A DNA stretch of 64,000 nt, from the NCBI RefSeq assembly GCF_964355755.1, contig NC_092676.1:30026871-30090870 (forward strand). Reading direction: 5' to 3'. The translations under genes and the position numbers were made by a program. Below the pieces are notes generated by a model, which was not told the origin of the DNA, ran no database searches, and was given only the letters and a program-made list of their open reading frames with translations. This document shows positions 9,893 through 64,000 of the stretch, piece by piece; the stretch's first letter is position 1; the number at the start of each line of letters is the position of its first letter. This DNA comes from Antedon mediterranea. Its lineage: Eukaryota > Animalia > Echinodermata.

Positions 9893-12800
9893 ATGGACAA
9901 ACTATCAAAGATAGTAATTTTGTTGGTTATTTATAGCATTTTTATGAGCATCGGATATATCAAATATTACGGAGAACGACCAATCAACAAGCTTCCAACA
10001 ACATCATGTTGCCGCTCAGACTCTAATACGACGTCAGCTAAAAAAGGTAGACCTATAGGATTGTTTACGGTACGAGAGTAGAAGTTATGAAACATGGTTA
10101 TAGCATTGAGTACCGACTTACTAATCTTTCCTGGGTGATGGTAGTCATTACTACTTTATTATTACGTCACAGTATTGTTATTGGGAATCCCAACAAAGGG
10201 GTTTCCTAATCGTAATAAAATATAGTAATGTATGCGTACATTATCTTTTATGTATGTTTTTGTTTAACATTTAGCATTTTCCTAATATCAGAATTATTAG
10301 ATTGACTGTCAGGCTAGAGGTATTCCCAATCCCCCGAGTGATTTTCATTTTCTTGTTTTTTGTTTGCAGGCCTAATTTTCACCTTTATTATGGCAATTAG
10401 AGTTACGAGCATTTATTAACTTTACCTTTGATCCAGCCTCCCTAATAGTTTGCATACAACGTGTTTCTTATTTTTTATGATGGCGATCGATGTCCTGTAA
10501 TTGTACTTGACGTGAATAGCCATTCATTATAGCTTATTCAAATACATAGGCCTTGGTACCTCAATAGACACCATACCCTAAGCAAACAATTTGTAAAGAG
10601 AGATTTATTTTCATATACCGATTGGCAAACGTAGGCATAACAATGGTTAAGTGGCTTGTATTATAATTGTAAAGTGTACTGAAATGATATATGGTATTTG
10701 AATATGATTTTAATTTTACAGAGAAATTGTTTCTCGATAAGAAATCAAGTGACATGAACAAGTTTATTTTGCCAATCAAATCAGACTCGAAAAACAAGAG
10801 TGGGCCTAATAGTATGCCTATTATTAAATCAACGAATGGTCGACGAAAGTTTCCTAGGAGGAAAAAGAAGAGATTTTTTTATTGGGAAGAATTAAAACAG
10901 ACAATGCATTATCTACCTTTAGGCAGCACATTTGATACAAACACGGTGAGTTGTATGCATTATCTACCTTTAGGCAGCACATTTGATACAAACACGGTGA
11001 GTTGTATGCATTATCTACCTTTAGGCAGCACATTTGATACAAACACGGTGAGTTGTATATAAGAAAATATGTCATGATTACAAATTTGAATGTTATTACA
11101 TACTATATAATGAATTTAGGTATTACACCAAACGTTTTGAATGTTATTACATACTATATAATGAATTTAGGTATTACACCAAACGTTTTGAATGTTATTA
11201 CATACTATATAATGAATTTAGGTATTACACCAAACGTTTTGAATGTTATTACATACTATATAATGAATTTAGGTATTACACCAAACGTTTTGAATGTTAT
11301 TACATACTATAATGAATTTAGGTATTACACCAAACGTTTTGAATGTTATTACATACTATATAATGAATTTAGGTATTACACCAAACGTTTTGAATGTTAT
11401 TACATACTATAATGAATTTAGGTATTACACCAAACGTTTTGAATGTTATTACATACTATATAATGAATTTAGGTATTACACCAAACGTTTTGAATGTTAT
11501 TACATACTATAATGAATTTAGGTATTACACCAAACGTTTTGAATGTTATTACATACTATATAATGAATTTAGGTATTACACCAAACGTTTTGAATGTTAT
11601 TACATACTATATAATGAATTTAGGTATTACACCAAACGTTTTGAATGTTATTACATACTATATAATGAATTTAGGTATTACACCAAACGTTTTGAATGTT
11701 ATTACATACTATATAATGAATTTAGGTATTACACCAAACGTTTTGAATGTTTTAAAGAAATTGATGTCTGCCTTTGCAAGTTTCTTGCCGAGTCGTTCAA
11801 ACCTGCTACAATCTTGCTTGGTGACTGCACTGTGACGTCATTCACTGGCTGTCAAACTTCCGAGCAGAAATAAAACAAGAAAACAATGTATAGATATTAC
11901 AACACTATAATATTGTTAAATCGTTACATTTTGTGTATCTAGGAGGAACGAATAATCTTCAACCGGGTACCTAAGTGTGGAAGTCGAACTGTTTTAGATA
12001 TTTTCAAATATTTAGCGAACAGAAACCAGTATAATATGATAAGCTCTACAATATATGGCCCTCTTCATCTACCAGAAAATAAAAAGGTAATGTTTTAAAT
12101 TTGATTCAAAACAATGGTTCTTTTGTCTTTAAAAAAAAATTTCTGTGAAGTCATCTATATTGGCAAAAAATACGGTTTTCTTTTACGTTCACACCACCCC
12201 ATGGTAGGACTAATATAAGCCAGTCGTGATGGTATAGCGCTTTGATGTTGGATGATTATGATTCAACAACAATTGTTACAAGGGACGACAAAATATAGAG
12301 CACACGTATCATAGGTCATATTACAGTTAAAGTTATTTAATGTTGATTGATTTTTGTTTATCTATTTGTCACAATTTAGGCTTTGATAAAAGAATTAATT
12401 CTGGCGGCGGAACCTCCGGTTTTATTCCAGCGTCATATGCATTTTTTAAGTTTTCCAAAGTAAGTAGGTACTCTTCCCTGATACATAATTTAATCCGATA
12501 ATCAGCTGTGTCGTGTGTGCGTGCGTGCATGTTTTGGTTGGTTTTGGCTTAGGATGAGGGAAGTCAATAGCAAATGCACGACGCACAGTAATGTATCGAA
12601 AGTAGTCCTTAGCTAGAAAGAAAAAAAAAATTCATTATTACCTTATCCATAGCTCATCAAGAGTTAGATATATAAACATAATTCGAGATCCCATAGACAG
12701 GTTCATATCGGAGTACTACTTCATACGTTTTGGCGACGACAGAAATCCTATGAACTTTTCGGGTACAGATCAAGAGAAATATCAGGTAATTCTAATATTA

Positions 12801-14112
12801 TTTATTTGATTGGTTGTAATTTTGACCAATCACAACGCGATCGATTATCCGAACTGTGTGTAATTGGTCAATTAACCTGCGTTGCGCGTACGACATTGCG
12901 TTCTTAGTGAGTGGGAACTACGAAGTAGCTCAAGTAGTATGTTACGCCGTGTGTGTCAAAATATTTTACGAATATTAAGCCGAATTATGAACTTAAGAAG
13001 TAAAGTGTACTACTTACTTACAGACCATTAACGAATGTGTACTAAAACGACGCCCTGAATGCTCAGGGAATAGACTTCAGTATATAATTCCATTCTTTTG
13101 TGGACACAACCCTCAGTGCAGGTAAGATAGATAATTTTCAGTATTGTTTATTGAGTTGTGGTGAGGTTCAGGTTCTTTTTTATTCTTTTCTGTCTGTCTA
13201 CACTATCAAACTTTATGTGACAAAAAGGTGTGATGTGCCCATATATGGACATGATGATGTTATATCACTATCATATTTAGGCATATCACTACCATATTTA
13301 GTTGTCAAATTAGTTTGATAGTGTAGACAGAGCTTAAGACTAATTAAACAGTTGTCATTCCCTGCAGGGCAACGTTTGACATTTAGTACGGTATATATGA
13401 AGTGTTACTCCATGATTGGATTCTGCGTTTACGTTATTTCTGACTCGACGATTGTGATTTTTTTAAACAGTTTGTTAAATAGTTCAATTCCTTTGGAGAT
13501 GGCTAAAACTAACATACAACAAAGCTTCGTAACGTTAGGACTACTTGATGAAATTGAAGACACATTTGCTGTCCTAGAAAAAGCATTACCTCGATTATTT
13601 CAGGGGGCTACTGCTGAAATTGTTCGACGCCAAAGTATGTAATCTCAATTATATTATAGTTTAACAAGTATGATTATTTTAATGTATGAATGGTGAATAG
13701 GAGGATGGCACGCCTACTTAAAGCGTGGTTTCCACTAGAGACGTGACGCGCGCAAAGACTGTAAGCGCAACATAGTGATTTGACCAATCACAAGCGATGG
13801 ATCCGAACTGTCGCTTGCGATTGGTCAACTCGCTTGCGTTGCGTCTCTCTTGATAGTATAAGTACCGTCGTAATAGGTAACTTGTATAATATAATTATTT
13901 CTGTTCAGTTGCGTTCAACTGTTAAGTTGAGTTATTTTATAATTTTTTCAGAGCAAAAGAAAAACAAACAATTTCAAACGAAGTCTAAAGTGATGCCAAC
14001 AGAGGAAGTCAACAAAATTCTATTAAAAGAAATGTATTGGGAATATCAATTATACGATTATGTAAAAGAACGCTTAAAAAATCAGAAGAAAACTCTGGGT
14101 ATCAAAAGGTGA
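9893..14112 (+). CDS. uronyl/heparan-sulfate 2-O-sulfotransferase-like (UST/HS2ST family), 8 exons (9893-10046, 10722-10945, 11943-12086, 12380-12459, 12653-12785, 13024-13121, 13471-13634, 13952-14112), 385 aa
   Basis: Type II membrane anchor (IVILLVIYSIFMSIGYI), 5'-PSB FNRVPKCGSRT, 3'-PB YINIIRDPIDRFISEYYFIRFGD, IPFFCGH and EYQLYDYVKERL; all phases consistent (1158 nt). Confidence 0.9.
10903..11056 (+). repeat. 51-bp x3 tandem repeat containing the exon-2 3' end and GTGAGT donor
   Basis: Unit atgcattatctacctttaggcagcacatttgatacaaacacg|gtgagttgt; donors at 10946, 10997 and 11048. Confidence 0.95.
11085..11750. repeat. 51/49-bp intronic minisatellite, ~13 copies
   Basis: Unit tttgaatgttattacatactat(at)aatgaatttaggtattacaccaaacgt. 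Confidence 0.95.
13190..13335. mobile_element. MITE family B (Harbinger-like)
   Basis: TIR agctctgtctacactatcaaac...gtttgatagtgtagacagagct flanked by TAA/TTA. Other copies at ~23600-23862, 26290-26400, 30583-30680, 31445-31572, 35074-35170, 47702-47841, 48236-48374, 50700-50845, 53643-53797, 61346-61508, 61659-61750, 62540-62675, 62855-63012. Confidence 0.85.
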
Positions 14113-17626: not shown

Positions 17627-18033
17627 TACTCTAAGTGCTGCTTAGGTAGGTATCTATTTACAGCAAGTCAAATGGCTGAGCGGTTAAGGCAGGGACACCA
17701 GGCCTTATTAGAGCTGTACATATTAAATAGCTAATATAGTTAGTATCGAGAATTATTAATATTATTACGTTAAATAATGTAGGCCTCCTATTTAGGCCTA
17801 GCTAAGCTAGGCCTACAGCTAGCTAGGCCTATTTTAATAAGGTTTTGATTTAGACTAGGCTACACCTAGTCTATCTAGCTAGTCTAGCCTAGGCCTTTCT
17901 AGCTAAATAGGCCTATAATAATATTATACTATTTATTAAGGGACAAGTCTTACTAATGGTGTAGCCATGGGTGGGCCATATTTCTATATTTGACATTTAT
18001 TAACATTTCTTTTCTTACATAGGTACATAAATC

Positions 18034-21000
18034 ATGGGAATAGATGCAGCAATTGCAGTGTTTTTTGCTGGATTCATAACATTAACAATAATAAATACAG
18101 TCGTATATCCGTCATCTGTTAATGGTAGGTATTTATTATGGTTGTAATTTTTGTTTACTTGATCAAATAATCTTTCTTTTTTATTTCAGAATCAAATATA
18201 ACATTCCATTTAAACAATTTAAAACCATTACTTATTACACATTTTATTTATATGACAGCCCTCAATAATAAAAAAATACTGAAATCAAAGAAGTGTAGCT
18301 TCCAAATTATCACTGTCAGTCTAGGGCAGTAATTTAATTTCATTCTCTCTGGCACAAGGAGACACAAATCTGTTTGGAGCTCCTTTCGTTGGTACAGGTA
18401 CATGACAACAGAATATTATAACAATTAACAGACAAATTAGTTTTATGCTTCAATCTTTGTACCCAAACTGTTGTCTTTTCAGAAACAACTAAAGATTTAA
18501 AACAAGAAACTAGCTTTAAAAGTAGACATTTATTGAGTGTTGAAGAAGATTGGGTTGAAGAAACTCCTATTCCTCAGGTAATAGTGACTGACTTACTTTT
18601 TAATAACAATCTTACAGCACATGGACTGTTTTACACAGTCAACTGATCAGTGGAAAGCAAACTGTGAGTGATAACATTTGCAATGGATTTTTTGACAGAG
18701 GTGAAATCTTGTCTTGTGTATTATACCACGTCCATACTTCTATGATATCACATACCTGGTCACAAATTTGTTTCTTTTCTTTGTCCATGTTAAGTTGACT
18801 TATGAAATATCAGGTGATACTTATCCAGAGGCGGTGGATGGTGGTAGTATACTTGAGTACACATGCTTACTTGTCTACAAAGTGGAACCAGAACATACTG
18901 CAATCAATATCTCATTTGAGGTAATGTTTTTTCATTTATAAGACTTAATTTTTGTTTGCAATTTTTTTATACATAAAAGTACACTAAACTTCATTAAACG
19001 ATCCAAATCTGTAACTACAGATTTTTTTCTGGTCAATTTGTTTATTAGGGTTTTTTTTTACACTTGTTTTAAACAGTGCATAGAGATATGTATTTTGCAC
19101 TATACATTTAAAACCATTAACTATCCATGGCACTTTTAGTTGAGCTGTAATTTGGTGGTTGGCAATGCTTTCCTTCCAATCCTAAGGTCCAGGGTTCAAA
19201 TCCTGACCATCACCATATCACTCATTCCAAGTTTTATCAACTCATGACTCTTTGAAAAAGAAAGAGATACAGATGAGACTGGCTACAGTATAATGTTATC
19301 AGTAATGTAATGCTGTCTTGTAAATGTGAATTATGAGCATATTTACTGTTAATATTCTTATAGCAATTTTCTTAAATGCTGGTGTACTTGAGATCTACGT
19401 TTATACCATGCTATACACTTTATTTTAATTATTGATATATACAACATTGAGAATAAGAGACTTATTTATTAAAATATTTAATATAATAATAATCAATATT
19501 GTTTCAGGTTGATCTACCATTCAGTTCATTTCATGAGGATTCTTTCAATGTCACACTTTATAGTGAAGCTCTAGGTATTTTACCCCACCAGACTATTGAT
19601 GAAAATGTAGATGATGAAAAGTCCAAAGCTGCTGTGAAGATTCTTCACTTGTTTCACGATCCCATTGTACAAAAGGTAGTACAGTACTATATTTAATTTT
19701 GTATGATTTATTTACTATTTATAAATGCCAATTAGTCTTACATTCATCTGAATTATAAATTAAACTAAGCCAGGACCTTGTCATTTTTATCATTGATCAA
19801 GGGCTTCTCTCGTCCAGACAAAAGACATAAGCCAATACGTTTGGGGTAGGTACTAGTTGCACAGGGCTGCCATAAGAGTCGGCAGTGCTGTGTTTCAAAT
19901 GCCTGATGGAAACCAAGCGTACATTTTTGCAACAACATATTATTTTTAGAATGAATTACTAAAATAAAATCCTTGTTTTGTTTAACTCAGGTATATGTGA
20001 AAGTGGATATATCAGAATCAATGTGGGTTAACTTAACTGAGCCATGGAAGCGGCCAGATTGCTGGTGGGTGCCTGCCTTTCCAGACTGCTATCAAACTCT
20101 ATATTCCGGTAAATAATAATAATAATATGTAGCAATTGGCAATTTAGAAGATACTTGATACTTTCTTGATGTTGATGGATGTTGATGCATGTTGATGGTT
20201 AACAAGCTAAACAGCTTATATGACCCTTCCTTTTCTTTCTTCTTTTACACTATGCTATAATTAATGTATAGATGTTTGAGAGATACGGGTATGAACAATG
20301 TTTGTATTAAAAAGATAACTGTAAGTAATGAAAATATTTGAGTTTAGGTGTTAAAGAGGATGTGCTAATAAGTGCGAAAGAGTAAACTTGCAGTCAAGAG
20401 ATGTTCTAACTCATTGGTCTTTTCTTAAAGATTTATATACTCATTTTGACCACCATCCACATTTATATATACTTAATGATTTATAAAGAAATGTAAGTAT
20501 TATTTGTGGAAAATTAATAAACAACAAATTATTTTCAAACTATAAAACAATTAAATTGATTAAATTGAGTTTTATTTCCTCAGAATGTGTGTTCTATGAT
20601 AAATCTCCAGAACAAACGTGGGACCCAGCTTATTGCTATCAGTTTAAAGTATCGGACTGTCTTCCATTTAACACTACCACTGAATGTTACTACATCAATA
20701 CAACATCATGTCTCATGGCCTTGATCGCAGATGCAGAGCGCCCTCAGGATATGCTATGTCCAACGGATGTCAACGAGACTGATTGTATCCAGATTAACGA
20801 TCGCGGATTGTTCTTTACTCAGTATGACTTCAGTGTTCCAACTGTTGCTCCAATCCCTGAAACATACGAGAAAGATTTTTGTGGCATGTCTATGGAAAGC
20901 ATTTGGAGTATGTAACATATTTCATAATGAATTTGGATTTTTGGATACTCTCTAATCATTAATTGATATGTTTGCAGTATATTTTTTAAATTTTTTTTAT

Positions 21001-24000
21001 TACATATGCATTCAACAACAGCCAGCACAAACTCTCCAATTACAGGATGGATAAACTATTACGAATTATCATGCTTATAAACTAAGTCTCATTTGAAGCT
21101 TAAGCTTGGTTCCCACTAGAACGTAACGCAAGGACGTAAACGCAACGCAATCGTTTTAACCAATGACAAGCGAAGTTATAGACAGTTAGCAATCACAAGC
21201 GAATAAGCCATCGCTTGTGATTGGTCAATTCACTTGCGTTGCATTACGTCCTTGTGTTGCGTCGCTAGTGGGAAGGAACCACGCTTCAGGGAGTGGAGTT
21301 GAAAAAGGTGTGAGTTAGCTACAGCTCCACTATTTGGCAGAATATTTTAAATAAAATTCAATGTGGTGTTTTTAAGCTTTACATTTACTGTCCATTGTTA
21401 TGATCTTTTAACATTTCTACCTTAATTATAATTTTTTCAATTTAGTGACAGAGGAAACAGCATATGAGCGGCAGTATACATACGACAGTACGATCGAGGA
21501 AGATGAAAACGGTTGTGTGCGTGTACTCATGCGTATCAAACCAATTATTACAACACCGCCACCAACGTACAATCCATACAAAGCTTTACGTAAGACAGAA
21601 AAGTACATAAATGCGAAGACTTGTATGAATGCAAACACTACAGGATTCTACACACAACCTATTCAGCCAATTAATTGGAAAGATTTCAATATTACAATTT
21701 TGTTCACTGGTAGGCACATTTATTCTGCAATATATAAATATTTACCAATTATTTACATTGTTACAGGGATCTTACAGAGAAAAGTAATTTTCTGTAGTCG
21801 CAAGACCCTTTGAAAAAATCGTATTATCTTAACTTGAGAAAAAAGTGTCTGTTTGACATGAATATAAATAATAAAATCAAATTATTTGCATTTTTTGTTT
21901 ACAAATATCATAATTGATCTTGTTTTAACTTTAAATTTGTAGGTGAAATTTTCAACTATGTTGAAGTAAATCAAGTTTTAGTTTCAGAAGTTTATGTAAA
22001 CATAACACAAAGTACTAAACTCATTAACCAAATAAGACGTGTATTTGGTAAGTAAAGTTTTTAAACTTCTTTATCTCTTCTTTAATAAATAAGTTCAGTT
22101 TTAGGATAGAATTGTTTTGATATTTGATTTTCCGTTAATTTGTTATCTTTCTATGAGACAGGCACCATTATTTCCACTTGTTTTGTGAATGAAATAAAGT
22201 TAACTTATCTTAGAAATATAATTTCTTAATGTTTTTAAATTTTTAGCCATTCAAAAAATACCAATAAAAAGACCAGGTTACTGGGTATACAACAATCCAA
22301 CATTTTCCGATCGTAATTTCACCCTGAAACATGAACAAATACTTCACCACGGTGTTTTGATCCACCCCGAAGCGTTCAACCGCGGTTTCACCATGACGAT
22401 TGATGTTCCAAAGGTTGATGATGTATACTTGGCCAAATTTGAAAACATCACACCATGGTGGAAGACGGGAAAACATTTTGCAGCGATATCAGATTACCAT
22501 ATGTTTAATTCAACCTATAATACAAATGGCGACGAATTAACTTTGGAAACTGTAATAGATAAGATGGAAGGTTATTATGATGGGGATAGCAGATTGCCAG
22601 ATATCACTTCTGAATGGGTTGTCGAACAAAATGATTACGGAGAAGAAATAATTGTTCAGTGTATATTTTCCGTCACACCATTTCTCAATATTAAAGATGT
22701 TGTTTGGCGCGACCACGGAAGATTAAATTTTTATTTGTATTCTCGAGTTCTTTCATCAGTGGTGGCTGATAATGAGCTTAAATTTTCTATCACAGCCGAT
22801 TTTAAGTTCCCACCAGGAGATGAACTAATTCTGTATGCGTCTAGGACGAGCACCGTGACTGTTCAACCGTTTGTGCCACGTATTCCGCCAGTCAATGCCA
22901 CTCAGGAACCAGACTGTCAAGATGACATCACATATACTTTTGAATTATTCAACATTCTGGAATTTTCTATCAAGGATATCTGGATGAACGTGACTTGTCC
23001 CGATTTAGTTATCATACCGTCGACGCTTGAAGTTGAAATTATTCACCATGTTAATGTCACAAGTGATAGCAACGCTGATATCATGCTTACTACAGATCAA
23101 ACATATCACATACATTACACAGAGTTGGCTCCTCAAGTACTTGCAAGAGGGCAGCAGACATTTCGACTGGTCAACAACGGTATTGCGCCGCATTACTCCA
23201 TTGTTTGCAAAGTTTATCTTTCATTTCGCAAGGATAATAAGGCGTTAGTCCTTCCATATTTGGCAGGTGTCAGTAATGAACTGTTTACACCTGGCATTGA
23301 GTATATTTTATATGGGCGTGATTTAATTGAGAAGGAGGAGGAAGTTATGATATTGACAACACCAATGAGTAGGACTACTGTGTTGTTAGGAAATGCCACA
23401 GCTGAAATTCCTATTATGGTGGATGAAGAAGTAAGTTATGGCGTGGAAGAAGAGACAACACCTCTAATGTACTCGATGCCTGTTGGGTCAAATGCAACAT
23501 TCATTATAAATATAACAGTACCAGAAATAACCACAGAGGTCAGTGGTAAATAGTAGTAGTACTGTAAGATCTATTTTCCAATGATGCACATGTCTAAAAA
23601 GCTCTGTCAAATCAAATTAGTTTGTGTGCCCAAATATGCTAGTGATATGCTTAAATATGGTAGTGATATGCCCAAATATGCTAGTGATATGCTTAAATAT
23701 GGTAGTGATCAGATTGCATTAACATTTATTTGGAACAGTCCTAGAAAAAAGGTAAAAAACAAGCATATATTTACAATAAGTTAAATGAGTTACATCATAA
23801 TATCCATATATGGACACATCTCATTTTTCTTGTCAAACTGGTTTGATAGTGTAGACAGAGCTCAATTGTTAAAATGTACTTTTTAAATGTTGATCTTGAT
23901 TTTATTTTGTGTATATTAATTATACAGTAGTAGTTTTTAATTATGCAAAAATGTGTCATTATTCCTTCTATTCAATAAGATTTCATCTTTTTTTAGATTG

Positions 24001-49962: not shown

Positions 49963-52900
49963 TCTAAGTTTTTATATGGCGCCCTTTTTTAGCATTATTA
50001 ATTAAAAAGAAAAGTTCAGATAGAGGTACCAAATCCGCTCCTCTTAAATCGACAGGTAGTACTCAAACATTTACAATAATATAATTGTTTTCAATTATCT
50101 GTTTCGGTGCATTTCTATGATTTTATTTCATTTATTTGTTTAAAAAATAATGGAGGTTATAATGAAACACGACAAGTTTGAGCTAAGGTGTACCATGGGT
50201 GTATGAGTTACTGTTTTCTTTGTTAAGACCTTTGTAGAAATGCTATTGGTATGGAAGATGGCTCGATTCCTAATAGCAACATCTTGACGTCCACCAATCA
50301 AGAGGCTGCGCGCTATAGTAGACTTAATCAACAGACGTCAGAAGGTGTATGGAACGTTTCTACCCCTCGTGAATTCGAATGGATTCAAGTCGATCTTGGT
50401 GTTGTTGACATCATAACTGGGGTGATGGTGCAAGGTTGTGGCCACCACAACATGTGGGTGACAAGTTATCAAGTAAACCACAGTAAAGATGGTGTTCACT
50501 TTGAATATGCGATGAACGAAGGCAATGACACCTTAATCAATTTGGTATTTAAACAAAAACTAAATTATTTACTAGTTAAGGTAACAATTAACTGTCAAAA
50601 ACATCTTTGTTCTCTATAAAGTAAAAACATCAAATATTGGAATTATTGTTGTGTTTTAATATTGTAATATAATTGTGGAGACACAACTGCGTCAACGTCT
50701 AACTGTCTACACTATCAAACTAGTTTTACAAAAATAGTGTGATGTGCCCACAACTACGGTAGTAATATGACATCATCATATCCATATATGGGCAGCACAT
50801 CACATTTTGTAGTCACATAAAGTTTGACAGTGAGACCGACCCTTTAGGTAAGTGTTCCTAGGGCGAAGTGAACTGTTATATTTGTCATTTGTATATTTAT
50901 ATATAGGCCCTATAGTATATATTCGTTATTTTTTTCAATTATGTAATATTGTTGAGATTATATAACTACTTTACATTACAATATTTACCACTTTTGACAA
51001 TTTAACATTTTTTGTTTTTAAATTGTTTAAAGTTTAAAGGAAACAACGATAGCGATTCAATTGTGACAAATCTGTTTTATAATTCGATCAAGGCTCGTTT
51101 TATACGCATTGTTGCTGTCAACTGGCAAGCCGCTGTTTGTATTCGATTTGAACCTATTGGATGCAAAAGTACGTCTAAGTTAGACTTGCCCAAAGTCTCT
51201 AGTTATTTCGAGGCTTTTCGATGTTTGTCTGAAATACACAAGTAGTATACGTATGAAACGCCATAAGTGCCAAAATATTTATCTTTTTACTAATAGTAAA
51301 CTCCGTCTGGAAGCCAGACTAGTACTGATCCATTATTTAAACTTGTTTCCACACTAGGCAAATTTAATCCAATGAACGAGAGCGCGTTAGTTTATGTTCA
51401 AATTGCCATATACTTTTTGCGAAGTGTTTAAATCTACCCAAACATTCTCGGATAAGCACTAAACCGTAGGTCCAGTGTACACATCTGGCTCAGGTGCACT
51501 TTAAATAACCTAGTACATCCTTTGAGACGAGTGGTGTTACTCCAGTGTACTAGTACATCACAGCCACAGCCACATACTCATCATACAGTATATATACACT
51601 TGGCCCTCTGGGAGAACAGTCTCTGACTGAAGAGGCTACCCAGTATAAAGAATAAAATAATAATAATATTAATAATATTAACATTTTACTTTTTTAGATA
51701 AAACGTACTGTGTTTATTACTCACCGTGCCAGAATGGAGGCAAGTGCTCAGGTGATAAGTACACGTATAGCTGTGAATGTTTGGATGGATATTTTGGCAA
51801 GAACTGCGAACATGGTAAGAACGTACAGCACGCTACAGAAGCAGATCTTAAGAGTTCGTATATAATAGAAAGGGATATAGAAACAAATATTTATATTTAT
51901 ATATGCTTGTAATATTAAGATTTATCATTTTATGTTTTTATTTTATTTCATCATCAGCCTACAGTAACCATACGTCACCATTAACAGGGTTGAAAGACAT
52001 AACATATAATATACATGCAAAAATCAACAAAAAAACAAGAAAACATTTAGATATTACTGACAAAACCTTATGACGGAAATAAGCAAGCGAATCCAAAAAA
52101 AATATCAACAGAACCATCAACTTTACACAGTGTGTGGTATGCACGGCGCTCTGGTCTTTTCTTCTTTTTTTTTCAAAGGACGCCTTATAAATACCATATT
52201 ATTATTATTATTATGTTATCTTGCGTACTCATCTTTCTATTAATAGTTCTTTGTATTTAGTCAAACAGAATTACCTCGCAATAACAGCAGTGGCTGGGAA
52301 AATGTACTATACAGCTACAAAGATAGCCAACAACTCGGCTGCAATGCAGTTGTGTGACACTCTATATGATGCGCATTTGCCTGTGTTTAAAACAAAAGAA
52401 GAAAGCGAACGTATAAAGGATATTCCACATGATTTATACGAATGGACTTGGTTGGCTTTGAACGATCGTGTTACCAATCGTGATTATTTCTGGACGACAT
52501 ATACCGATAACTACCCACTAACGTATGATGGTAATGCTTTTATAGACATTTTTTTTTCATTGATATAATGATGTCAAAATAAAAACAAAAGCTTGAGGTA
52601 CAGCCTCCTGATCTTAATGATTATTGTTATTATCGCATCGCATATAGCCATCATGCTCAAAGAAGGTCCGCACTTCTGTTCATCGGGGCTGTCAGTCGAT
52701 TTGTATATATTTGCGTATATCTCTATACCAATTCATGCTTTCAATTGACACAAATTACAATCCGTCGCGCATTTAACCGAATTTCAATATTCATCAAAAC
52801 CACTAACTAGTTCATAAGAAGCTTTATTCACGAATTAACATAAATGCATTACACCAAGTGCACCTGATAAACTGAATTGCGGAATGTGTGCACACAAAAA

Positions 52901-55900
52901 GCTGCCCATCAAACAGTAATAATGGGAAATGCAAGATGTAATCTTACGGATAGAATTGGCTTTTCATTATTTCTGAAGCTCGGTTCCCGCTATGACGCAA
53001 CGTAAGTACGTAGACGCAAAGCAAGCCTGTTGACCAATGACAAGCAACTGTTCGAATAATCCATCGCTTGTCATTGGTCAAATCACTTACGTTGCGTTAC
53101 GTCGTTGCGTTGCGTCTCTAGTGGGAACCAAGCTTAAGCCTCGCTTTTTGGTTTTGACATTCCGATGTTCATGCTAACACCAATCAGTGCAAACTACTGG
53201 ATTAAACATACGTTATGACAATTTAGAGTCACCATAACTTAAGTATGGCGGGCCAGACTGTCATTTAATCATTAACAAGATATCTTAGTTTTAAATAGAG
53301 ATATCTTTATTAAAAACTAAGATATCTTATTTTTAAATGAGATATTTTCGTTATAGATACTAAGCATTAAGTCTAGTTAGTGCGATTAACATTGAGTCTT
53401 TATGTCGTTGACACAATGTTGACCGTCTTCGTCGATATTTCTATTGCTACTCGTTTTGATTATTTCTGCTATACCTACTATCTTTTTAGCGTGGGAAGTG
53501 GGTGAGCCAAATGATTATGGAAATGGCGAAGAATGTTGCTTTGCTTTGCCGACAGCCACATTCGTTGATGTTCCATGTAACTGGAATTTGAGTATCGTTT
53601 GTGAAAAAGGTAAAGCGTAATAGTATTATTGTTTTGATCTGTAAGGCTCTGTCTATACTATCAAATAAGTTTGAAAAAAAAAGGTGTGATTTGCCAAAAT
53701 ATGGTGGTTATATGCCCAACTATGGTAGTGATCATCATGTCCATGTATGGGCACATCACATTTTTTTGTCAAATGAAGTTTGATACGGTAGACAGAACAG
53801 ATGTGAATCAAATCGTATTAATGTTCATGATGTAGTCTGTAAGGCGTGGTTGTCACTGGAGACACAACGCAAGGACGTACGCGCAACGCAAGCAAGTTGA
53901 CCAATGACAAGCCACTGTTCGAATAATCCATCGCTTATGATTGGTCAAATCACTTACGTTGCGCTACGTCCTTGCGTTGCGTCGCTAGTAGGGACCAAGC
54001 TCACAATCAATACTATATAGGTGGTCATTGTAAATAATCACTGTATACTGTTAGGAGTGTAGGTTGGTTTAGGCGGAGTAGAAGTAGTATCACTTTGAGA
54101 ACTAGCATTAGGCTGGACTTTGTTTCCAGAAGACATGACTGACTGTGACTGGGGCTTTTGAATGAATGCTTGTTTATGTGTTAAGGCATAGTCATCAGCC
54201 AGTCGAGCAGCTTGACTTAAGGTCTCAGCTTTTTGCTCATCTAGATAAGTCCTCACATCAGGAGTAATACATGATTTAAACTCTTCTATCAAAATTAGTT
54301 GTCTAAGCCTATCATAATCTTTATTTGTTTGCTTAGATGCACACCAACGATCAAATAACCGTTCTTTGGTTTGTGCTAATTCAAGGTGTGTTTGGTTAGT
54401 TTGCCGTTGTTTATTTCGGAATTGTTGCCTATAGGCCTCTGGGACTAATTCATACCCCTTTAAGATGAGTTCTTTAACTACATCATATGATGAACTTTGC
54501 TCAATTGATAAATCAGTATAAATTTCTCTAGCTTTACCAGTTAGTACACTTTGTAAAAGCAAGGTCCAGTGTTCTTTAGGCCATTTAAGATTTTCGGCAA
54601 TTTTCTCGAAATGTAAAAAGAATTTATCTACTTCCTTCTCCTGAAAAGGTGGCACTAGTCTAATATGTTTAGTTACATCAAATTTTGGATTGGAAGTAGG
54701 TTGACTAATTCCACTAGCTAGCTCTAATTCGCGTAATTTTAATTTAAAATCTCTTTCCTCTCTTTCAAATTCCAATTCCATTCTTCGAATTTCAATTTCT
54801 TTCATATTTTGTAATTCAATTTCTCTTAATTTAGCATCAATGCTTGAATCAACTTGGGAAGACATAACACTACTATCAAAAATGTCTTCCTCAACCAAAT
54901 AAGTTAATAAACGACTCTTAATATCATTCTTTCGCATAGAGGATTCAACGTCCTTTAGACCTAGGTGCGTAGCTAGTTTAAGCAAATCATCTTTTTTCAA
55001 ACTATTAAATACCTCTTGGGTAGGGTCGGCAAAAAATGTTTCTGGTTCAAAGACCATTGTAACAGTTACTAATTTCACAAACAAATGTTTGAAAATAAAA
55101 CAAATTTAACTAGGTATAAAACTATAAACCTATCGATTTAAGTTAGAGTTAAATTTAAAGTTTTTCCCGGATGACCCCCCACTTTCTGTTACATGCAAGG
55201 CACAAACAGAAGATAGGCAATACAATGGATAAGTTTTATACTCTAAACTACGTTTTATTCTTCAAACAGAAAAGCAAAAGATAACAAAATCAATTAAAAT
55301 GATTATAAAGATAAAGATTAATTAACAATATAAAATAATTATCAAAGTATAAGATGGTGGTAACTATGATCTTAATGCTGAGAGTTGTTTGAGACTTCAA
55401 CATTCTGAGGTCCTTGCTAATTTGGATGCTAAGTTTGTTCATTTAACAGATGCTGAAAGGATAGAACTAACAAAATTGGTGCTTGGACATAACAGTTCAT
55501 TTCCTGATGTACCTGTACAAATCAATAATGATGATGATGCTAAGCTGCTTAAAGAACATCCTTATCATCTTAAAATAATACAGCAGAACTATCTAAAACA
55601 AGAGATGTATATGCTCCAAACCGATATTATAGAACCAAGTTTTAGTCAGTGGAGTTCACCATGTGTGCTGGTTTTAAAGCCTGATGGTTCTTACCGATTA
55701 TGTACAGACTTTCGAAAGGTCAATGTAGTTCCAAAGGCGGATTCATACCCATTGACACGCATTAATGATTGTCTCTACAAATTGGGCAAATTTGATCTAC
55801 TCAAAGGATATTGGCAAGTTTCTCTCATCGAACGTGTGAAGGAGATATCAGCCTTTGTCACCAATGACGGACTCTACCAATACAAGCGAATGCCGTTGGG

Positions 55901-58900
55901 AATGCGGAATGCACCAGCCACGTTTCAACGCCTCCTGAATAGTGTGATTGCAGACATCAATGGCTGCGAGGGCTACATAGATGATGTTATTGTCTACAGT
56001 GATACTTAGCAAGATCATGTTGAGAACATTTTTCAAGGAGCTTTAAAAAATAAACAATTAACAAAATGTGAATTCAGCAGAGGAACTGTGAACTTGATAT
56101 TATAATGTTGTACACAGGTGTTTTTAAAGAATAAAATATTGTTCTGTGATTTTATATACAATTATTACATTTTACTGTAATGTATATAAAAAGTTTGTAT
56201 GCAAACTTTTCTTTAAGGAGGGGTGTGTTAGGAGATACATTTATACTATTATATTATTATCACTTTACCATAGTATTGTACTGTATATATTATATTGGTT
56301 GTAGACTAGACCAAAGTTCAGTAACCAGGTTGTTAGTAATTGTACCTATGAGATTGCTCATAACTCAAGTTGTCAGAGACACTTGTTTGATATTCCATAT
56401 AAGGAAATTGTTACAACAACTTCATACTAAGATGATGATGTCATTTGAATTTCATCTTAAAACCAATTTCATCATCTTTAAGTTATTTGATGAGATCATT
56501 ATGATCACCCCACATATCCTGCATAAGAATATAAATAGTGGTACATTAACCATATTTAATCAGTCCTAATACGAATACTGACATAGCTAAACTAAATGCT
56601 GTTAAAGTCTATTGAAGTATCTAGAAGTCTGTTTGACTGTTTTGAACAACTGAAGTAAAGCTTTATATTAGCCTTGGGCTCAGCTATATTTGTAAGTCTT
56701 GAATTTCTTTATGTATTTTGATTGTGTGTTACCACCATCTTATACTTTGATAATTATTTTATATTGTTAATTAATCTTTATCTTTATAATCATTTTAATT
56801 GATTTTGTTATCTTTTGCTTTTCTGTTTGAAGAATAAAACGTAGTTTAGAGTATAAAACTTATCCATTGTATTGCCTATCTTCTGTTTGTGCCTTGCATG
56901 TAACAATACCGATATATCTTATTACATTTGTAATACGGGATCCATAATTCAGTACTACTACAATGTTTTGTTTGTTTTTTTTAGTTGGAAACCTTCCATT
57001 CAGCGATAAGCTGTATTACATCCTACCAGACATTGTACCGTTATCCAACGCTTCTGCACTGTGTAAAGATCTTGACGCCGATCTTCCAGTTATTAAGACA
57101 CAACAGGAAAATGAGGCGTTTCGTTCGATTGGACTTTCGTTTTGGTTGGCGTTAAACGATAACGATACAGAAGAGGAGTTTGTGTGGTCAACACGTATAG
57201 ATGGAGATCAACAATTACGTAAGCGTTGGTTTTGATTACTTAACGCAACGCAAAGTGATTCGATCAATCTCAAACGATGGATTATTCGAACAGTCGCGTG
57301 TGATTGGTCAGCTCGTTTTGCGTTGCGTCTACGTCCTTGTGTTACGTCCTAGTGGGAACCAAGCTTTAGGCGCAATGCAAGAACGTAGGCGCAACGCAAG
57401 CGAATTGACCAATCACAAGCGAAATTATGTTCACGTCACCGTCCTGCGCGTCCTAGTGAGAACCAAGGAAGAGTTAAACTCTCTTACCTGGTGGGAACCA
57501 AGTTTTAGAAGACACAGTTTTTCGTGCGTGTAATGGTTTTTTCCATGAGATTTTTTTTTATGCTTAAGTGCTGTTCGTATTGCTAGACCGTGTGTATAGG
57601 CTTTGGACATAGAGTAGCCTAACTTGATAATTTAGAATTAAAGAAATGATTATTCTTTATTCAGTGGGATGGAACTTGCTACCAGTTTCCGGTAATGGTA
57701 TAGATAGAGACTGTACGGCGTATGTTGATGGACACTGGGAAATTGTCAATTGTGATGAACAATATACGGTATTTTGTGAAAAGGGTGAGTTAAAGTTTTA
57801 GTACTATGCCAACAAATGACTGTAAACAAGAAAGGCCAATGCAGACAGCGTCGTACGACGACGAGGATTAAAGATGTTTAAAGTTCTCCGAACGACCTAA
57901 AAACTACGCCCGACGCTATCTGAAGACGACTCGTCTCGTCGGAATTCAACTCAGACAGCACCGACGAGTCTAGTCAAAACGTTTCTTTCGTACCTCGTCG
58001 CATGACGCTGTCTGAGATGCCTTAATACGATAACTTCAAAACATCTTTGTTTTATTGAGGTACATGCACTCTAGGCTATAAATACTCTTTTGAATCAAAA
58101 GTCAAATAGTAGTTTCCCGTAAAGGCCAATTTACACAGACGAGCGGTAACGGTAAGCGGAAATCCGCGTAGCTTGTCCCACGTAGAATCTGTATCTATCC
58201 TGAGCGGAAACCGCCCGTCCGCTCTGCGTTGTGTGTAAATGGTCATAAGGAATAACATAGATTTTGTATTTGTGACGTTACCGCTAAATTGGCCTGTACA
58301 TTTCTCTTGATGTTTCGAATACACCGTATCTTAATTTTTTTACTTTCTTTATATTGTTAATACAAATATTTTATCTTACGTCATTTGAACACCAGCGGTC
58401 TGTCGTAGTTTCCTTGGGATGGAAGATAGCACGATACCGGATGAAAATATCTTGGTATCTAGTAACCCTGAACAAGCCATTCATAGTAGGCTACACAAAA
58501 GCGATGTAGGTTGGCGTGGTGCCAACTCTTCTTCGCAGGAGTGGATTCAAGCTGATCTTGGCGCTGAGAAACTTGTCACCGGGACGATTCTACAAGGTTG
58601 TGACAACATGGAGTGGGTGACCAGTTACCATGTCAACCACAGTTCAGATGGTGTTCACTTTGAATATGCGATGAACGAACGAAATGCAAAACTAAGTATT
58701 CTGGTAAAATCTTATGTAGATGATATGTGATATTATATAACACCTATATAAATTCCTGTCATTTGATTGGACGAATGTGGGTCACATGGCGTGCAATAGT
58801 ACGCACTATTCAACGATCGTTAAATAGTACTTTTTGAAACATTTTTGTGTACGAAAAAAAACCGTCTAGATGTTATATAAAACAAATAATAAATGTTTTG

Positions 58901-61900
58901 TATTCGTGTAATGGTACAAATAATGGCACTTGGTGAATGATGAAAGGTTATATCAACTCGGCTTTGCCTCGTTGATATAACCTTTCATCATTCACCTCGT
59001 GCCATTATTTGTACCATTGCACTCATAAACATTCATTATTTGTATACTAATGTATTATTGTTTTATGCATCTATTAAAAAAAAAGTAGGCCTTGCGCGTG
59101 GTTCCCACTAGAGACGCGTCACAACGATGTACGCGCAACGCAACAGAGTTGACCAATGACAAGCCACTGTTCGAATAATCCATCGCTTGTGATTGGTCAA
59201 ATCAATTACGTTGCGTTACGTCCTCGCGTTGCGTCGGTAGTGGAAAAATGAAATGCGAGCAACGTGAATACTGTAGTTTAATGCTGATTTTGATTATTGA
59301 ACTCTTAATCAAATTGACCCATTGTGGTTTCCTGTTGGGTGAGAAAAAGCAATGAAAAAAATAGATTAATAAATACTGTAATATTTTACGGTTTAAATTG
59401 TTTAAAGTTTGATGGAAATGTTGATCGTAACACGCCGGTGACGAATCTGTTTTATTACTCGGTCGTTGCTCGTTTTATACGTATAATTGCTGTGGACTGG
59501 CAGACTCAAGTCTGTATTCGATTTGAACTTATTGGATGCAAAGGTAAGTTGTTATAATAATCAAAATAATGACTGTGTATCTAATTGCGAAGAAGAATAT
59601 TAAAAAATCCTGGATCATAGTAATTTAATTACTTAAACGTAATACGGTACGTTAATTTATTTTATAAATATATTTGCTTTGCTAATACAATATTAGAAAT
59701 GGATTACTGTAGTTACTACTCGCCTTGTGAAAATGGTGCTGAGTGTGTTAATATGGAAAACACTTACAACTGTACCTGTCTGGATGGCAATTATGGGAGA
59801 AATTGTGAAATTGGTAAAAACAATCTTATTTGCATGTGCCAATTAAACTATTATTAAAAACCAACAAAAAAAAAAATAGAATTTAAATAGAAATCGACTT
59901 TTTGTTGTGCGTTATAAAGTAATATTGTGCTTTCATTTATTTTGTTTTGGTAGTTGAGTCTACGACCACGTCTTTGACCACAGGTCAGTCTACGACCACG
60001 TATTTGACCACAGGTCAGTCTATGACCACGTCTTTGACCACAGGTCAGTCAACGACCACGTCTTTGAACACAGGTGAGTCTATGACCACGTCTTTGACCA
60101 CAGGTCAGTCTACGACCACGTCTTTGATCACAGGTCAGTCTACGACCACGTCTTTGACCACACGATTCTAAGAAGTGTACAGCCTTTGAGTTTTTCCTTT
60201 GTGTGTACAAACCCAATTAGGAAAACCCCAATTTTCAGTGGAAAGATTTTAATTGATAACCTTTTAATAATTTTGTAGTATCATAACAATTACCACACCA
60301 AACATTATTTTATTATAGGCCCATTTTCTTTGAATATTACTATACAACTTTCTTTTATATTTTAGATGAACTAGAAGATCGTTCTACGTTATCGGTACGA
60401 ATACCCTACATAATATTATTATAATATCGGGTGCTGTATATTGAGCTGGGGTCCCATTAGGCATTTGAAATCAGCACTTCTGACTCTTATGGCAGCCCCT
60501 GCATCTAGTAGTAGTATCTGCCTCAGACGTATTGGCCCATGCCTTTCCTCTAGTCAAGATGTGCACTGGACGAGAGAAGCCCTTGATCAATATTGGGACC
60601 AACCAAGGTGCTTTAAACAGTACATCCATCATTCAGATAAATGTAAAACTAATTAGCATTGTCATTCGTGACCGACGTCGGCCATACACACACTGTAATG
60701 CCAATGTCATATTCTTTGTTTATAGTGGTCTACTAGTGACTACACTTTCGTGTACATACCAAACGAGGTAGTTAGGATGTTTTCTGCGAAGGCAGCCCAA
60801 TTACAAAGTCTTCACAGTTTGGATCAAATGCTGGTGCAAGTGAAACACAACGCAACATACGAAAATATCTTCAATTTTGTGAAAGTATGATATTTAAACA
60901 ATTATATTAAGAAAACAATATAATAGTATAACAAAATAGAAAACAAATATTGTTAATTTTTATCTCCCAAATATCTATTGGACACTATAGGAAACAATTT
61001 TTTACTCGTTATCCGGAAATAGATATCTGTCTTTTCGTAATATTTTGCCAAATGCTAAATAAATAGATGTTTGTCCAATGAAGAACACGCAATTACATTA
61101 GGCCTATATTTAGATTTGGTGTGTTTGTAAACTCTCGAAATGACTTTCGTTTTTTACTTTAGAGTAAGGTCTCTACGAATGCTTTATCATTATTCAATTA
61201 TAAACTAACAGATATTAACTTGATTATAATGTTTCATTATGTTCTTATATTTCTATTATTTGATTTTTATAGAATGTTTTGACTGTTACGTCGACGTTTT
61301 TGCCATCTATCAAGGTAAGCATTAACCTGTGCAGTGGCACACTTAAGCTCTGTCTACACTATCAAACTAGTTTGACAATAAAAAGTGTGATGTGCCCAAA
61401 TATGGTAGTGATATGCCCAAATATGGTAGTGATATGACATCATCATGTCCATACATGGGCACATCACATTTTGTTGTCACATAAAGTTTGATAGTGTAGA
61501 CAGATCTTAACATTACATATTTCGTGAGTGATTGTTTTGATTGTATTGTGGGTTTTCTAATTGAATGGTTGCATTATATTACAACCCTTAATTCATTATT
61601 ACAAAATCTGTAAATTGTCTACAGTCTGCAAAGTTAATTTCTGATTTGTGCCATGTCTAAAGCTCTGTCTACACTATCAAACTTTATGTAACAAACAAGT
61701 ATGATGTGCCCATATGGACATGATGATGTCGAATCACTACTATACTTGGACATTTCTACTGATGTAATTCCGTGTCCGTGTTTTTTTGTTTGTTTTCTTT
61801 TAGAAAGAAGACGATAAGTTTAAAATAGTTTCAATGAATGAGGTTTTATATAAAATCGCAGCTTCGCTTTTGCCTGAAGATGATATAATTGAGATCGACT

Positions 61901-64000
61901 CTGAGTACCAATGTACGTACATCTATATACTTAATAATGATAATATTTATCTGTAAGAACAGGCCCAAATAAAGTGTGCACTTAATATATCAAAGCAACC
62001 ATTTTTTAATTTAAGCAATCTTAACACAATATAACAGAAGAACACATAGTTTATTACAATTTACATTGACATGTTCTCGTTTTTTTCAGTTGTGAATATC
62101 AGAAAGATGTCATCGTCCTCATCATACGATGTTGAATTAGACTTAGACAGAGTGAATGAAGGGGAAGGATGTAGTGTTTCGATGTCTATTTCACTATCAC
62201 TGATTCCGGGTTAGTACAGCTTAGGGTATACCTTAACAATTAAGCACGTGCTTTAATGCGCTTTGAGCACTCTTGAGTGGTATGTACGGTATAAAAATCC
62301 TGTTATTATTTTTATTATTAACTGTATCTATTTTACCAATCTAAAATGAAGAAATCACTCTTTAATATTCTTTAGATGACTTTTTAATTCTCGTCATTTT
62401 CTATCAAAACCGGCCATTGTTTTATGGGACAACTGACTTAGAGTAAGTAATAACTTAAAATGAACTTGTAAAAAGTAGTATTGGACTACACACTAATACC
62501 TGCCTATCATACTGTATGTTCCTCGCTTATTCTTGGCTCTATCTATTTTACACTATCAAACTTTCTATGAAAAAATGTATATCCATATATGGACATGATG
62601 CTGTATTTGAGCATATCACCACCATAATTTGAGCACATCACACTTTTTTTTGTCAAACTTGATAGTATAGACAAAGTTTACACATGATACTTTAAAAATG
62701 TTTTGTTCAAGGTTTGTGAGTAAAGAAAAGTTCATTGGTTCAGGAGTAGTTACCATCAGCTTGTTCAATTCATTACTAAACAAGATACCGCTCCCTGTTA
62801 ATATTACCATGAGACATCTAAAGGTATTTTTCTTTTAAAGGAAATATTCTCTAAAGCTCTGTCTACACTATCATCTGTATGTGGCAAAAAATGTGATCTG
62901 CCCATATATTGATATGATGATGTCATATCACTACCATATTTGGGCATATCACTACCATATTTGGGCACATCACACTTTTTGTCAAACTAGGTTGATAGTG
63001 TAGACAGAGCTTTATGTATTGTTTTCAATTGTGTTTTTAATCACATTATTTTAAGTTTAAGTCATAACAACTATAAATGTATTGGATATGTTTTGCAGAA
63101 TGTAACTGAACGAATATTAGCAGATGACTTAATAACGGAATGCGTTTTTTGGAATGTTACATACAAGTAAGTGTATTGTTAGTTAGCCAAGTAAAGTGAC
63201 TTTACATAACTTGACATGACGTGACTTAACTAGACGTGACGTGGCTTGACTAGACGTCCGACTTGACGTGACTTGACTTGAAGTGACTTGACTTGAAGTG
63301 ACTTGACTTGAAGTGACTTGACTTGAGTAGACGTGGGAATTGACACGACATGACTAGACGTGACTTAACTTGATTGACTTGACGTGACTTGACTAGACGT
63401 TCGAAGTGACGTGACTAGACGTGGCTTGACGTAGAACTTGACTAGACGTGATTTTTGACTATAGACTTGACGTGAGACGTGTGACTTGACTAGTAAACAA
63501 CAGTTTACTAATAATATACGATAATGTGGTCCCATAATACAAACATTAATGTACTCACTGTATGTGTATTATTCTGTCATAGAGAGTGGTTTGATAATGA
63601 TTGTAAACATTAATGTACTCCCTGTATGTGTATTATTCTGTCATAGAAAGTGGTTTGATAATGATTGTAAACATTAATGTACTCCCTGTATGTGTATTAT
63701 TCTGTCATAGAAAGTGGTTTGATAATGATTGTAAACATTAATGTACTCCCTGTATGTGTATTATTCTGTCATAGAAAGTGGTTTGATAATGATTGTAAAC
63801 ATTAATGTACACCCTGTATGTGTATTATTCTGTCATAGAGAGTGGTTTGATAATGATTGTATGACTTTCCACGAATCACAAAAGTCGACCACCTGTATTT
63901 GTGATCACACAACAAGTTATGCAATACTAGTCGGAAGTGACGTAGACTCTGGCGCTCAAGAGGCACTGTCAATGATAACCACAATCCTGTGCGTTTCGTC
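44577..64000 (+). CDS. adhesion GPCR, 3'-incomplete: SP-SRCR-[F5/8C-EGF-CTL-CTL]x2-F5/8C-EGF-Thr stalk-GAIN/GPS-TM1
   Basis: SP 44577-44643; SRCR 45017-45328; F5/8C 45696-46490, 50228-51168, 58396-59543; EGF 46878-46988, 51699-51814, 59697-59813; C-type lectins 47305-48209, 49213-49854, 52261-53609, 56985-57784; Thr repeat from 59954; small GAIN exons 60366-63166 (PVNITMRH, ECVFWN); GPS EWFDNDC...TTCICDHTTSYAILV then ALSMITTILCVS from 63839. Phases are consistent; the GAIN-A exons are the least certain. Confidence 0.85.
48419..48892 (-). mobile_element. non-autonomous Helitron, 474 bp
   Basis: On the minus strand it starts A|TCtatatata and ends with a GC hairpin (ggtacgcgagcgaagcgagcgtacc) + CTAG|T; no TSD. 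Confidence 0.75.
49873..49966. repeat. (TCTA)n(TCTG)n(TCTA)n microsatellite
   Basis: Read directly. Confidence 0.95.
54038..55057 (-). pseudogene. Gypsy gag (SCAN-like capsid region), 3'-truncated
   Basis: LVPPFQEKEVDKFFLHFEKIA..WPKEHWTLLLQSVLTGKA..YELVPEAYRQQFR..LILIEEFK; stops before any zinc knuckle or protease. Confidence 0.8.
55165..55181 (-). promoter_or_regulatory. primer-binding site, tRNA-Pro type
   Basis: TGGGGGGTCATCCGGGA lies 5 nt after the LTR end TGTAACA; the tRNA-Pro PBS is TGGGGGCTCGTCCGGGAT. Confidence 0.7.
55365..56090 (+). pseudogene. Gypsy reverse-transcriptase fragment, decayed
   Basis: SQWSSPCVLVLKPDGSYRLCTDFRKVN, DLLKGYWQV, MPLGMRNAPATFQR, YIDD, then a TAG stop; several small deletions; RNase H and integrase absent. 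Confidence 0.85.
56226..56905 (+). mobile_element. LTR, 680 bp
   Basis: TGTTA...TAACA ends, PPT directly upstream, AATAAA at ~56833. Confidence 0.8.
57832..58023. mobile_element. MITE with imperfect TIRs (Harbinger-like)
   Basis: aggccaatgcagacagcgtcgtacgacg...cgtcgcatgacgctgtctgagatgcct. Confidence 0.55.
58730..59047. mobile_element. non-autonomous element with a ~165-bp terminal hairpin (Crypton-like, tentative)
   Basis: Long inverted repeat 58880-59045 centred on ctcggctttgcctcg; the family label is from memory only. Confidence 0.45.
59955..60163 (+). repeat. 30-bp coding tandem repeat x7 (STTTSLTTGQ) carrying six splice donors
   Basis: cacag|gtcagt at 59984, 60014, 60044, 60104, 60134 and cag|gtgagt at 60074; read-through ends at TAA 60169-60171. 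Confidence 0.9.
63208..63492. repeat. degenerate (gactt/gacgt)n simple repeat
   Basis: Read directly. Confidence 0.85.
63541..63860 (+). repeat. 64-bp tandem repeat x5 containing the GPS-exon splice acceptor and first 22 exon nt
   Basis: Units start at 63541, 63605, 63669, 63733, 63797; each has ttattctgtcatag|a(g/a)agtggtttgataatgattgt. Confidence 0.95.

What the first reader, a model, noticed from the sequence alone, without database searches (positions are those of the whole stretch)
10903..63860. Recurrent tandem arrays that multiply real splice sites in three adjacent genes
Seen: four arrays have a unit spanning an exon-intron junction: 10903-11056 (donor x3, in frame), 34113-35104 (donor x15), 59955-60163 (donor x6, in frame) and 63541-63860 (acceptor x5). 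A fifth array (24920-25437) is made of acceptor-like units. All have unrelated sequences and are nearly homogeneous, hence young. Inference: a local-amplification process acts on arbitrary sequence in this genome and produces copy-number-variable splice choices. These either tune protein length or add decoy sites that lead to truncation or NMD.
Basis: partly seen in the sequence, partly recalled or inferred. Interest (0 to 1): 0.7.

Follow-up and report, generated by a model that had tools for sequence, protein, structure and literature searches.

The report
Splice-junction "mirage" repeats in feather star
In three neighbouring genes of a feather star, short pieces spanning an exon edge have been copied head to tail 3 to 15 times, but the RNA and gene annotation seen here show only one splice signal per repeat, so these are likely tolerated repeats of a kind already known from lancelets and a few human genes rather than splicing switches.

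Summary
Four tandem arrays repeat a real splice site (donor x3, x15, x6; acceptor x5) in three genes of the crinoid Antedon mediterranea. The fifth array is intronic with weak acceptor-like units. No use of several sites was seen. The annotated proteins match donor 1 of the first array, donor 4 of the 30-bp array and the last acceptor of the 64-bp array. RNA contigs from a second sample list one joint out of the 30-bp array, at that same donor 4, its strongest. The x15 array has no RNA or annotation test; its extra donors and the extra acceptors all lead to early stops. The 30-bp array is not young: a 91%-identical paralogue-like protein and a related organism carry it too. Four of nine arrays span a junction against 0.8-1.6 expected (P 0.005-0.055), in one window picked after the fact; no genome was held. 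This is the architecture of amphioxus "mirage" minisatellites and the human F7, CBS and 6-16 VNTRs. The scan has noted it before on other DNA (urchins, annelids, sharks). Minor use of extra sites is not excluded, because contigs drop rare forms.

The parts
9944..14111 (+). Gene 1, uronyl 2-sulfotransferase-like, 8 coding exons
   Evidence: Model translates to P0001 letter for letter; Sulfotransfer_2 E 1e-17; NCBI name
10904..11058 (+). Array 1: 51 bp x3 (42 nt exon + 9 nt intron); donors ACG|GTGAGT after 10945, 10996, 11047, all in frame (+17 aa each); annotation uses 10945
11085..11751 (+).
18023..42822 (+). Gene 2, large cysteine-rich protein; 33 exons from 18483 give 4052 aa open; the two 5' exons are uncertain
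   Evidence: weak WSC hit on exon 33994-34148, E 0.019, below cutoff
24920..25437 (+). Array 5: intronic 52 bp x10, begins 13 nt after donor 24907; weak acceptor-like AG per unit; 4 of 10 tested, all lead to a stop; no junction spanned
34113..35105 (+). Array 2: 15 units of 57 or 72 bp = exon end + CAG|GTACAT + left end of a MITE; in-frame TAA 4 nt into the intron, so only donor 34148 keeps the frame; block structure 57,57,72 / 57,57,72,72,72 / 57,57,72,72,72,72
35074..35172 (+). Internally deleted MITE whose left terminus is part of the array-2 unit
   Evidence: alignment to three other copies in the window; terminal motif list
44629..64000 (+). Gene 3, adhesion-type GPCR (SRCR, F5/8, EGF, C-type lectin, GPS; 7tm_2 beyond the window)
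   Evidence: model from exon 58396 on equals the first 508 aa of P0002
59954..60163 (+). Array 3: 30 bp x7 coding Ser/Thr-rich decamers; donors after 59983, 60013, 60043, 60073, 60103, 60133; used donor 60073 (the only GTGAGT), so 4 units are exonic and 3 intronic; read-through ends in a stop
   Evidence: RNA joint 60073->60366 GT..AG; P0002; scores
63541..63861 (+). Array 4: 64 bp x5 (42 nt intron + 22 nt GPS exon); acceptors before 63583, 63647, 63711, 63775, 63839; only 63839 keeps the frame
   Evidence: P0002 uses 63839; an RNA contig starts exactly at 63839 (weak hint)

Best explanation
These are junction-spanning minisatellites ('mirages'): short pieces across an exon edge were copied head to tail, likely by ordinary local duplication followed by unequal exchange or slippage, and splicing likely uses one site per array almost all the time. 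Shown: the arrays, their frames, and one site per array in the annotation (3 arrays) and in RNA contigs (1 array directly). Inferred: a first duplication at 1-4 nt of microhomology (array 2 at the end of a MITE sitting about 6 nt inside the intron, with two separate 3-nt breakpoints), then further expansion. Survival follows from geometry: the first donor copy and the last acceptor copy keep their original exon context, and the extra copies are removed with the intron. In the 30-bp array the strongest donor wins over position, so four units stay in the exon as a Ser/Thr spacer. Any leak to out-of-frame copies would give early stops and would probably be cleared by NMD (not tested).
For: P0001 equals the window model with donor 10945, and its 90% cluster has 1 member. 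P0002 equals the model with donor 60073 and acceptor 63839 over 508 aa; 1 member. Run X5 (RNA by its spliced joints; different sample and study from X1-X4) lists 3 GT..AG joints in 59300-60420, of which 1 leaves the array, at 60073. That donor scores 9.4 bits against 8.1 for the other five. An X5 contig begins exactly at 63839. 4 of 4 downstream donors tested in array 2 and 4 of 4 upstream acceptors in array 4 give stops. 4 of 138 junctions have an echo of 21 or more of 24 nt, and none a decayed one. Junctions are dense: 138 in 44.6 kb, median intron 317 nt after collapsing arrays. Published mirages and the F7, LMNB2 and PDGF repeats splice at one site (PMC3087553, PMC3902484 passages; PMC1557585 introduction).
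Against: The RNA is one shallow run of contigs (depth about 3-15), which drop rare forms; 62 pieces were not shown. A 33-nt X5 piece at depth 3 covers 60081-60113, past the used donor; it may be unspliced RNA, the paralogue, another allele or minor use of donor 6. Arrays 1, 2 and 5 have no RNA test, and array 2 has no annotated protein (searched only up to 2000 aa). Whether the NCBI models rest on reads at these junctions is unknown. The X5 contig at 63839 carries a 9-letter gap that matches the paralogue's 3-aa insertion, so its origin is not clean. In human 6-16 and CBS two pseudo-sites are used. Four of nine spanning arrays is above chance in this window. Microhomologies of 1-4 nt are not diagnostic in AT-rich DNA.
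Confidence: 0.72

Rival explanations
1. A mutational or repair process in this lineage is biased towards exon-intron junctions (for example coupled to transcription or splicing), so mirages arise there more often than DNA length predicts, even if each is spliced out. This is compatible with the best explanation on splicing and differs on origin.
For: 4 of 9 arrays span a junction against 0.81-1.60 expected, P 0.005-0.055 over six null settings; with 4 MITE-internal duplications added, 4 of 13, P 0.009-0.037. PMC3087553 calls mirages possibly general in cephalochordates, with unclear mechanism.
Against: The window was flagged because of this pattern, among some 250,000 windows. Counting the older coding array as exonic leaves 3, with P(>=3) 0.04-0.20. 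Five of nine arrays, and the 20-bp array at 608-851, span no junction. No decayed echoes at 134 other junctions. No genome to test.
Confidence: 0.3
2. The in-frame donor ladders (arrays 1 and 3) are used alternatively and tune the length of the sulfotransferase stem and of the receptor's Ser/Thr spacer.
For: 3 of 3 and 6 of 6 donors are in frame. The three donors of array 1 are identical; those of array 3 differ by 1.3 bits. X5 piece 60081-60113. The paralogue-like P0003 codes 3 units against 4. Human 6-16 and CBS use extra sites.
Against: One joint out of array 3 in X5; single-member protein clusters without longer or shorter isoforms; two in-frame arrays among four is what unit lengths divisible by 3 plus purging would give.
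Confidence: 0.15
3. Some arrays are assembly artefacts (over-expanded copies).
Against: Units differ by patterned substitutions, and array 2 has a higher-order block structure. Units 1-4 of array 3 are read letter for letter in another sample and multi-unit pieces occur in organism B.
Confidence: 0.05

Closest known systems
Amphioxus 'mirage' minisatellites (Adh3, troponin C, globins BflGb6/BflGb9, PGBD5); PMC3087553 and PMC3902484, passages found by term search
   Same: Tandem copies of an exon-intron boundary, both donor-side and acceptor-side; units of 10-160 bp; several per locus; reported not to disturb splicing.
   Different: Here in a crinoid. One array carries a MITE end. One array keeps four units in the exon and uses an inner donor. 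Allelic and somatic length instability, reported for Adh3 and BflGb6, was not tested here.
Human F7 intron 7 37-bp VNTR, with CBS intron 13, interferon-inducible 6-16, LMNB2 and PDGF as cited there; PMC1557585 abstract, introduction and discussion read
   Same: First unit spans the donor, identical pseudo-donors follow; F7, LMNB2 and PDGF use only the first. Arrays 1 and 2 fit this (array 1 by annotation, array 2 by frame only).
   Different: Array 3 does not follow the most-upstream rule: the fourth and strongest donor is used. Array 4 is an acceptor array. 6-16 and CBS use two extra sites, which was not seen here.
Variable internal tandem repeats in human segmental-duplication paralogues; De Grassi and Ciccarelli 2009, PMC2812944, passages
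   Same: Units of about 30 bp at exon-intron boundaries that differ in number between recent paralogues and change amino-acid repeats, as between P0002 (4 units) and P0003 (3 units).
   Different: There many boundary repeats have transcript support for alternative forms and new introns; none was seen here.

Membership tests
Mirage / junction-spanning minisatellite | Head-to-tail units that contain a real exon-intron boundary | tested here: met
   4 of 5 arrays; array 24920-25437 does not
Mirage / junction-spanning minisatellite | Extra copies keep GT or AG signals | tested here: met
   Copies score at the 31st, 45th, 45th-81st and 34th percentile of the window's own sites
Mirage / junction-spanning minisatellite | Normal splicing at one site, no aberrant mRNA | tested here: inconclusive
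   One joint for array 3, annotation for arrays 1, 3, 4; shallow contigs; nothing for array 2
Mirage / junction-spanning minisatellite | Copy-number polymorphism between alleles or cells | not testable with these tools
   Only k-mer contigs are served; a 3 versus 4 unit difference is seen between paralogue-like proteins only
F7-type donor VNTR | Most upstream donor is the one used | tested here: not met
   Not met for array 3 (fourth donor); met by annotation for array 1; untested for array 2
Splicing-modulating tandem repeat (spl-TR, PMC10078293, abstract and outline seen) | Repeat length is associated with splice outcome across individuals | not testable with these tools
   Needs matched genotypes and RNA reads
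Intron gain by tandem duplication (Rogers model; search listing only, and passages) | A new intron spliced between a donor and an acceptor inside the array | tested here: not met
   Array 3 units meet at AG|GT, but X5 contigs read units 1-4 without a skip and list no joint inside the array; not tested for arrays 1, 2

The most novel reading that the evidence does not exclude
Crinoids, like amphioxus, have a duplication process that preferentially copies exon-intron junctions, and it feeds protein evolution: an in-frame donor ladder lets a single base change in one copy reset how many Ser/Thr units stay in the receptor's spacer (4 here, 3 in the paralogue-like protein), a ratchet for exon length that needs no regulated splicing.
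Probability: 0.25. Interest if true: 0.55.

Novelty: new member of a known kind. Interest (0 to 1): 0.24.

Why it matters
As it stands the finding is a crinoid example of a described repeat type. Its use is as a natural test bed: identical donors (array 1), donors of unequal strength (array 3) and identical acceptors (array 4) in neighbouring genes let position and strength rules of splice-site choice be compared outside mammals. If a genome-wide junction bias were real, it would point to a link between splicing or transcription and where tandem duplications arise, which PMC3087553 leaves open.

Tried and rejected
No whole genome is held, so no genome-wide test was possible. The run search listed no holder on record as RNA; X5 was taken as RNA because its contigs join exons at GT..AG. 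(56900-64000) was swamped by MITE matches: its joint table shows only repeat joints (3291 rows not shown), so it gave no direct joint for array 4. X6 and X7 have little or no cover over array 4; a hole proves nothing, so no age is claimed for it. Contig depth over array 4 cannot tell copy number. No full-length gene 2 protein was found (length limit 2000 aa). Two literature searches returned 0 papers. A search for echinoderm + minisatellite + splice site + intron-exon boundary listed 15 of 19 papers, none by title or abstract start on an echinoderm mirage. The Antedon search listed 15 papers, none on this. Zhuo et al. 2007 is not held (known only from a reference list). No supplements were opened. 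No earlier notes exist for this genome. Rejected: array 24920-25437 as a splice-site multiplier (no junction, weak scores); a shared mobile unit behind all arrays (units unrelated); the first donor as the functional one in array 3 (my first model, corrected). Rows dropped before the enrichment count: of 56 TRF rows I kept 9 non-redundant arrays inside the three gene bodies (13 with MITE-internal 21-bp duplications), and left out rows outside these genes, two microsatellite-type tracts (49875, 63197) and short low-score rows (20168, 24168, 33124, 38134, 53278, 55289-56803).
Full report
Setting. The window is animal DNA. An 8-exon model of the first gene translates letter for letter to P0001, named by NCBI as uronyl 2-sulfotransferase-like of Antedon mediterranea. 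Gene 2 gives 4052 open codons over 33 exons and has only a sub-threshold WSC hit next to array 2. Gene 3 is an adhesion-type GPCR with SRCR, F5/8, EGF, C-type lectin, GPS and 7tm_2 domains; from exon 58396 on, the model equals the first 508 residues of P0002. No whole genome was available.

Observation. TRF finds all five arrays. Four contain a real splice site in each unit: 3 donors at 10904-11058, 15 at 34113-35105, 6 at 59954-60163 and 5 acceptors at 63541-63861. Against a matrix built from the window's other 62 donors and 64 acceptors the copies score as ordinary sites (31st to 81st percentile). The fifth array starts 13 nt into an intron and spans no junction; its AGs score at or below the 9th percentile, a level passed by 140 other AGs in 22,915 bp of intron.

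Consequences of each site. Array 1: all three donors are in frame, giving 368, 385 or 402 aa. Array 3: all six are in frame, and reading through all units ends in a stop. Array 2: a stop codon lies directly behind donor 1, so every later donor truncates the protein at residue 2756 of 4052 (4 of 14 later donors computed). Array 4: 4 of 4 upstream acceptors stop at residue 1440, before the GPS motif is complete.

Which sites are used. The annotated proteins use one site each: donor 1 in array 1, donor 4 in array 3 and acceptor 5 in array 4. Each cluster has 1 member, and whether the models rest on reads at these junctions is unknown. Ten runs hold part of 56900-63150, none on record as RNA. X5, another sample and study of the same coded organism, has contigs that join exons. 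In 59300-60420 it lists three GT..AG joints, 59543->59697, 59813->59954 and 60073->60366, and a loose end that is the next exon. So units 1-4 are exonic, read letter for letter, and the only joint out of the array is at the one GTGAGT donor (9.4 bits against 8.1). This departs from the most-upstream rule of F7; donor strength or avoidance of a 30-nt exon could explain it (inference). Against a clean reading: a 33-nt X5 piece at depth 3 lies at 60081-60113, X5 also holds intronic pieces, contigs drop rare forms, and 62 pieces were not shown. For array 4, an X5 contig starts exactly at 63839, as a branch between spliced and unspliced RNA would give, but it carries a 9-letter gap like the paralogue's insertion, so it is only a hint. 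Arrays 1, 2 and 5 have no RNA test.

Age and origin. P0003, 91% identical to P0002 and on a contig of the same length, codes three of the same units (a tandem paralogue is my inference), and organism B, with 16 differences in 193 letters nearby, holds multi-unit pieces in 2 of 2 runs laid. The other arrays are 98-100% homogeneous per unit type, which fits youth or ongoing homogenisation. Edges overlap by 1-4 nt. Array 2 has two breakpoints, each with 3 shared letters, both inside the left end of a MITE that sits about 6 nt into the intron, and a higher-order block pattern that implies several rounds. The six units compared share no real similarity. Slippage or microhomology-mediated repair followed by unequal exchange is the likely route; it is inferred, not shown.

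More than chance? With arrays collapsed to one unit, the three genes have 138 junctions in 44.6 kb. Four of nine arrays span one, against 0.81-1.60 expected (P 0.005-0.055 over six settings; 4 of 13 with MITE-internal duplications, P 0.009-0.037). Treating array 3 as a coding repeat leaves three, P(>=3) 0.04-0.20. Four of 138 junctions have a near copy within 400 nt and none has a decayed one. Since the window was flagged for this very pattern, the excess is suggestive only.

Comparison with what is known. Tandem copies of exon-intron boundaries are described in amphioxus as mirages, on donor and acceptor sides, polymorphic and reported not to disturb splicing (PMC3087553, PMC3902484; passages). 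Human F7, LMNB2 and PDGF use only the first donor, while 6-16 and CBS use two more (PMC1557585; abstract, introduction, discussion). Boundary repeats that differ between recent paralogues are catalogued in PMC2812944 (passages), and length-splicing associations in PMC10078293 (abstract and outline). My searches listed no echinoderm case by title or abstract start (empty), which is weak evidence of absence. The term mirage reached me through earlier notes of this scan, which report the same pattern in urchins, annelids and sharks; these are unchecked AI notes and are not counted as support.

Verdict. Real, correctly seen, and a new member of a known kind. The best reading is tolerated junction-spanning minisatellites with one dominant site each (0.72). 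A junction bias in origin (0.3, compatible with that reading) and alternative use of in-frame ladders (0.15) stay open. Interest 0.24.

Noticed in passing
window 4707-6852, minus strand: Divergent tubulin gene, alpha-like by reading; Tubulin and Tubulin_C hits on the last exon.
   Followed up: partly
window 9010-9839: Element with 173-nt inverted arms (95%), each holding a 16-bp tandem array x6.
   Followed up: partly
window about 15860-17037: Spliced open gene with a Tc5 transposase DNA-binding domain, an 18-bp coding repeat x6 and a C-terminal PHD-like finger, with no catalytic domain hit, between genes 1 and 2.
   Followed up: partly
window 54038-56905: Rearranged retrotransposon remnant in the 3.4-kb intron of gene 3: gag-like frame (SCAN hit) on minus, RT fragment on plus, and a perfect 178-nt inverted pair at 55187-55364 / 56728-56905.
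   Followed up: partly
window 11085-11751: Second array of the same 51-bp period but unrelated sequence only 27 nt behind array 1, with some 49-bp units; two arrays side by side may mark a local hotspot.
   Followed up: partly
window 13191-63014: One MITE family with terminal inverted repeats occurs in many introns of all three genes, often with internal 21-bp duplications; very high copy in all four runs laid.
   Followed up: partly
window 18023-42822: Gene 2 encodes a protein of over 4000 aa; its three largest exons (430, 737, 902 aa) have no Pfam hit at E 0.01, and the last carries long cysteine-rich stretches and several polybasic motifs.
   Followed up: no
P0003 versus window 58396-64000: A 91%-identical second receptor protein on a contig of the same length; the annotation starts both at the last F5/8 domain, whereas the window's frame stays open back to exon 45017, so the annotated gene may be split or truncated.
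   Followed up: partly
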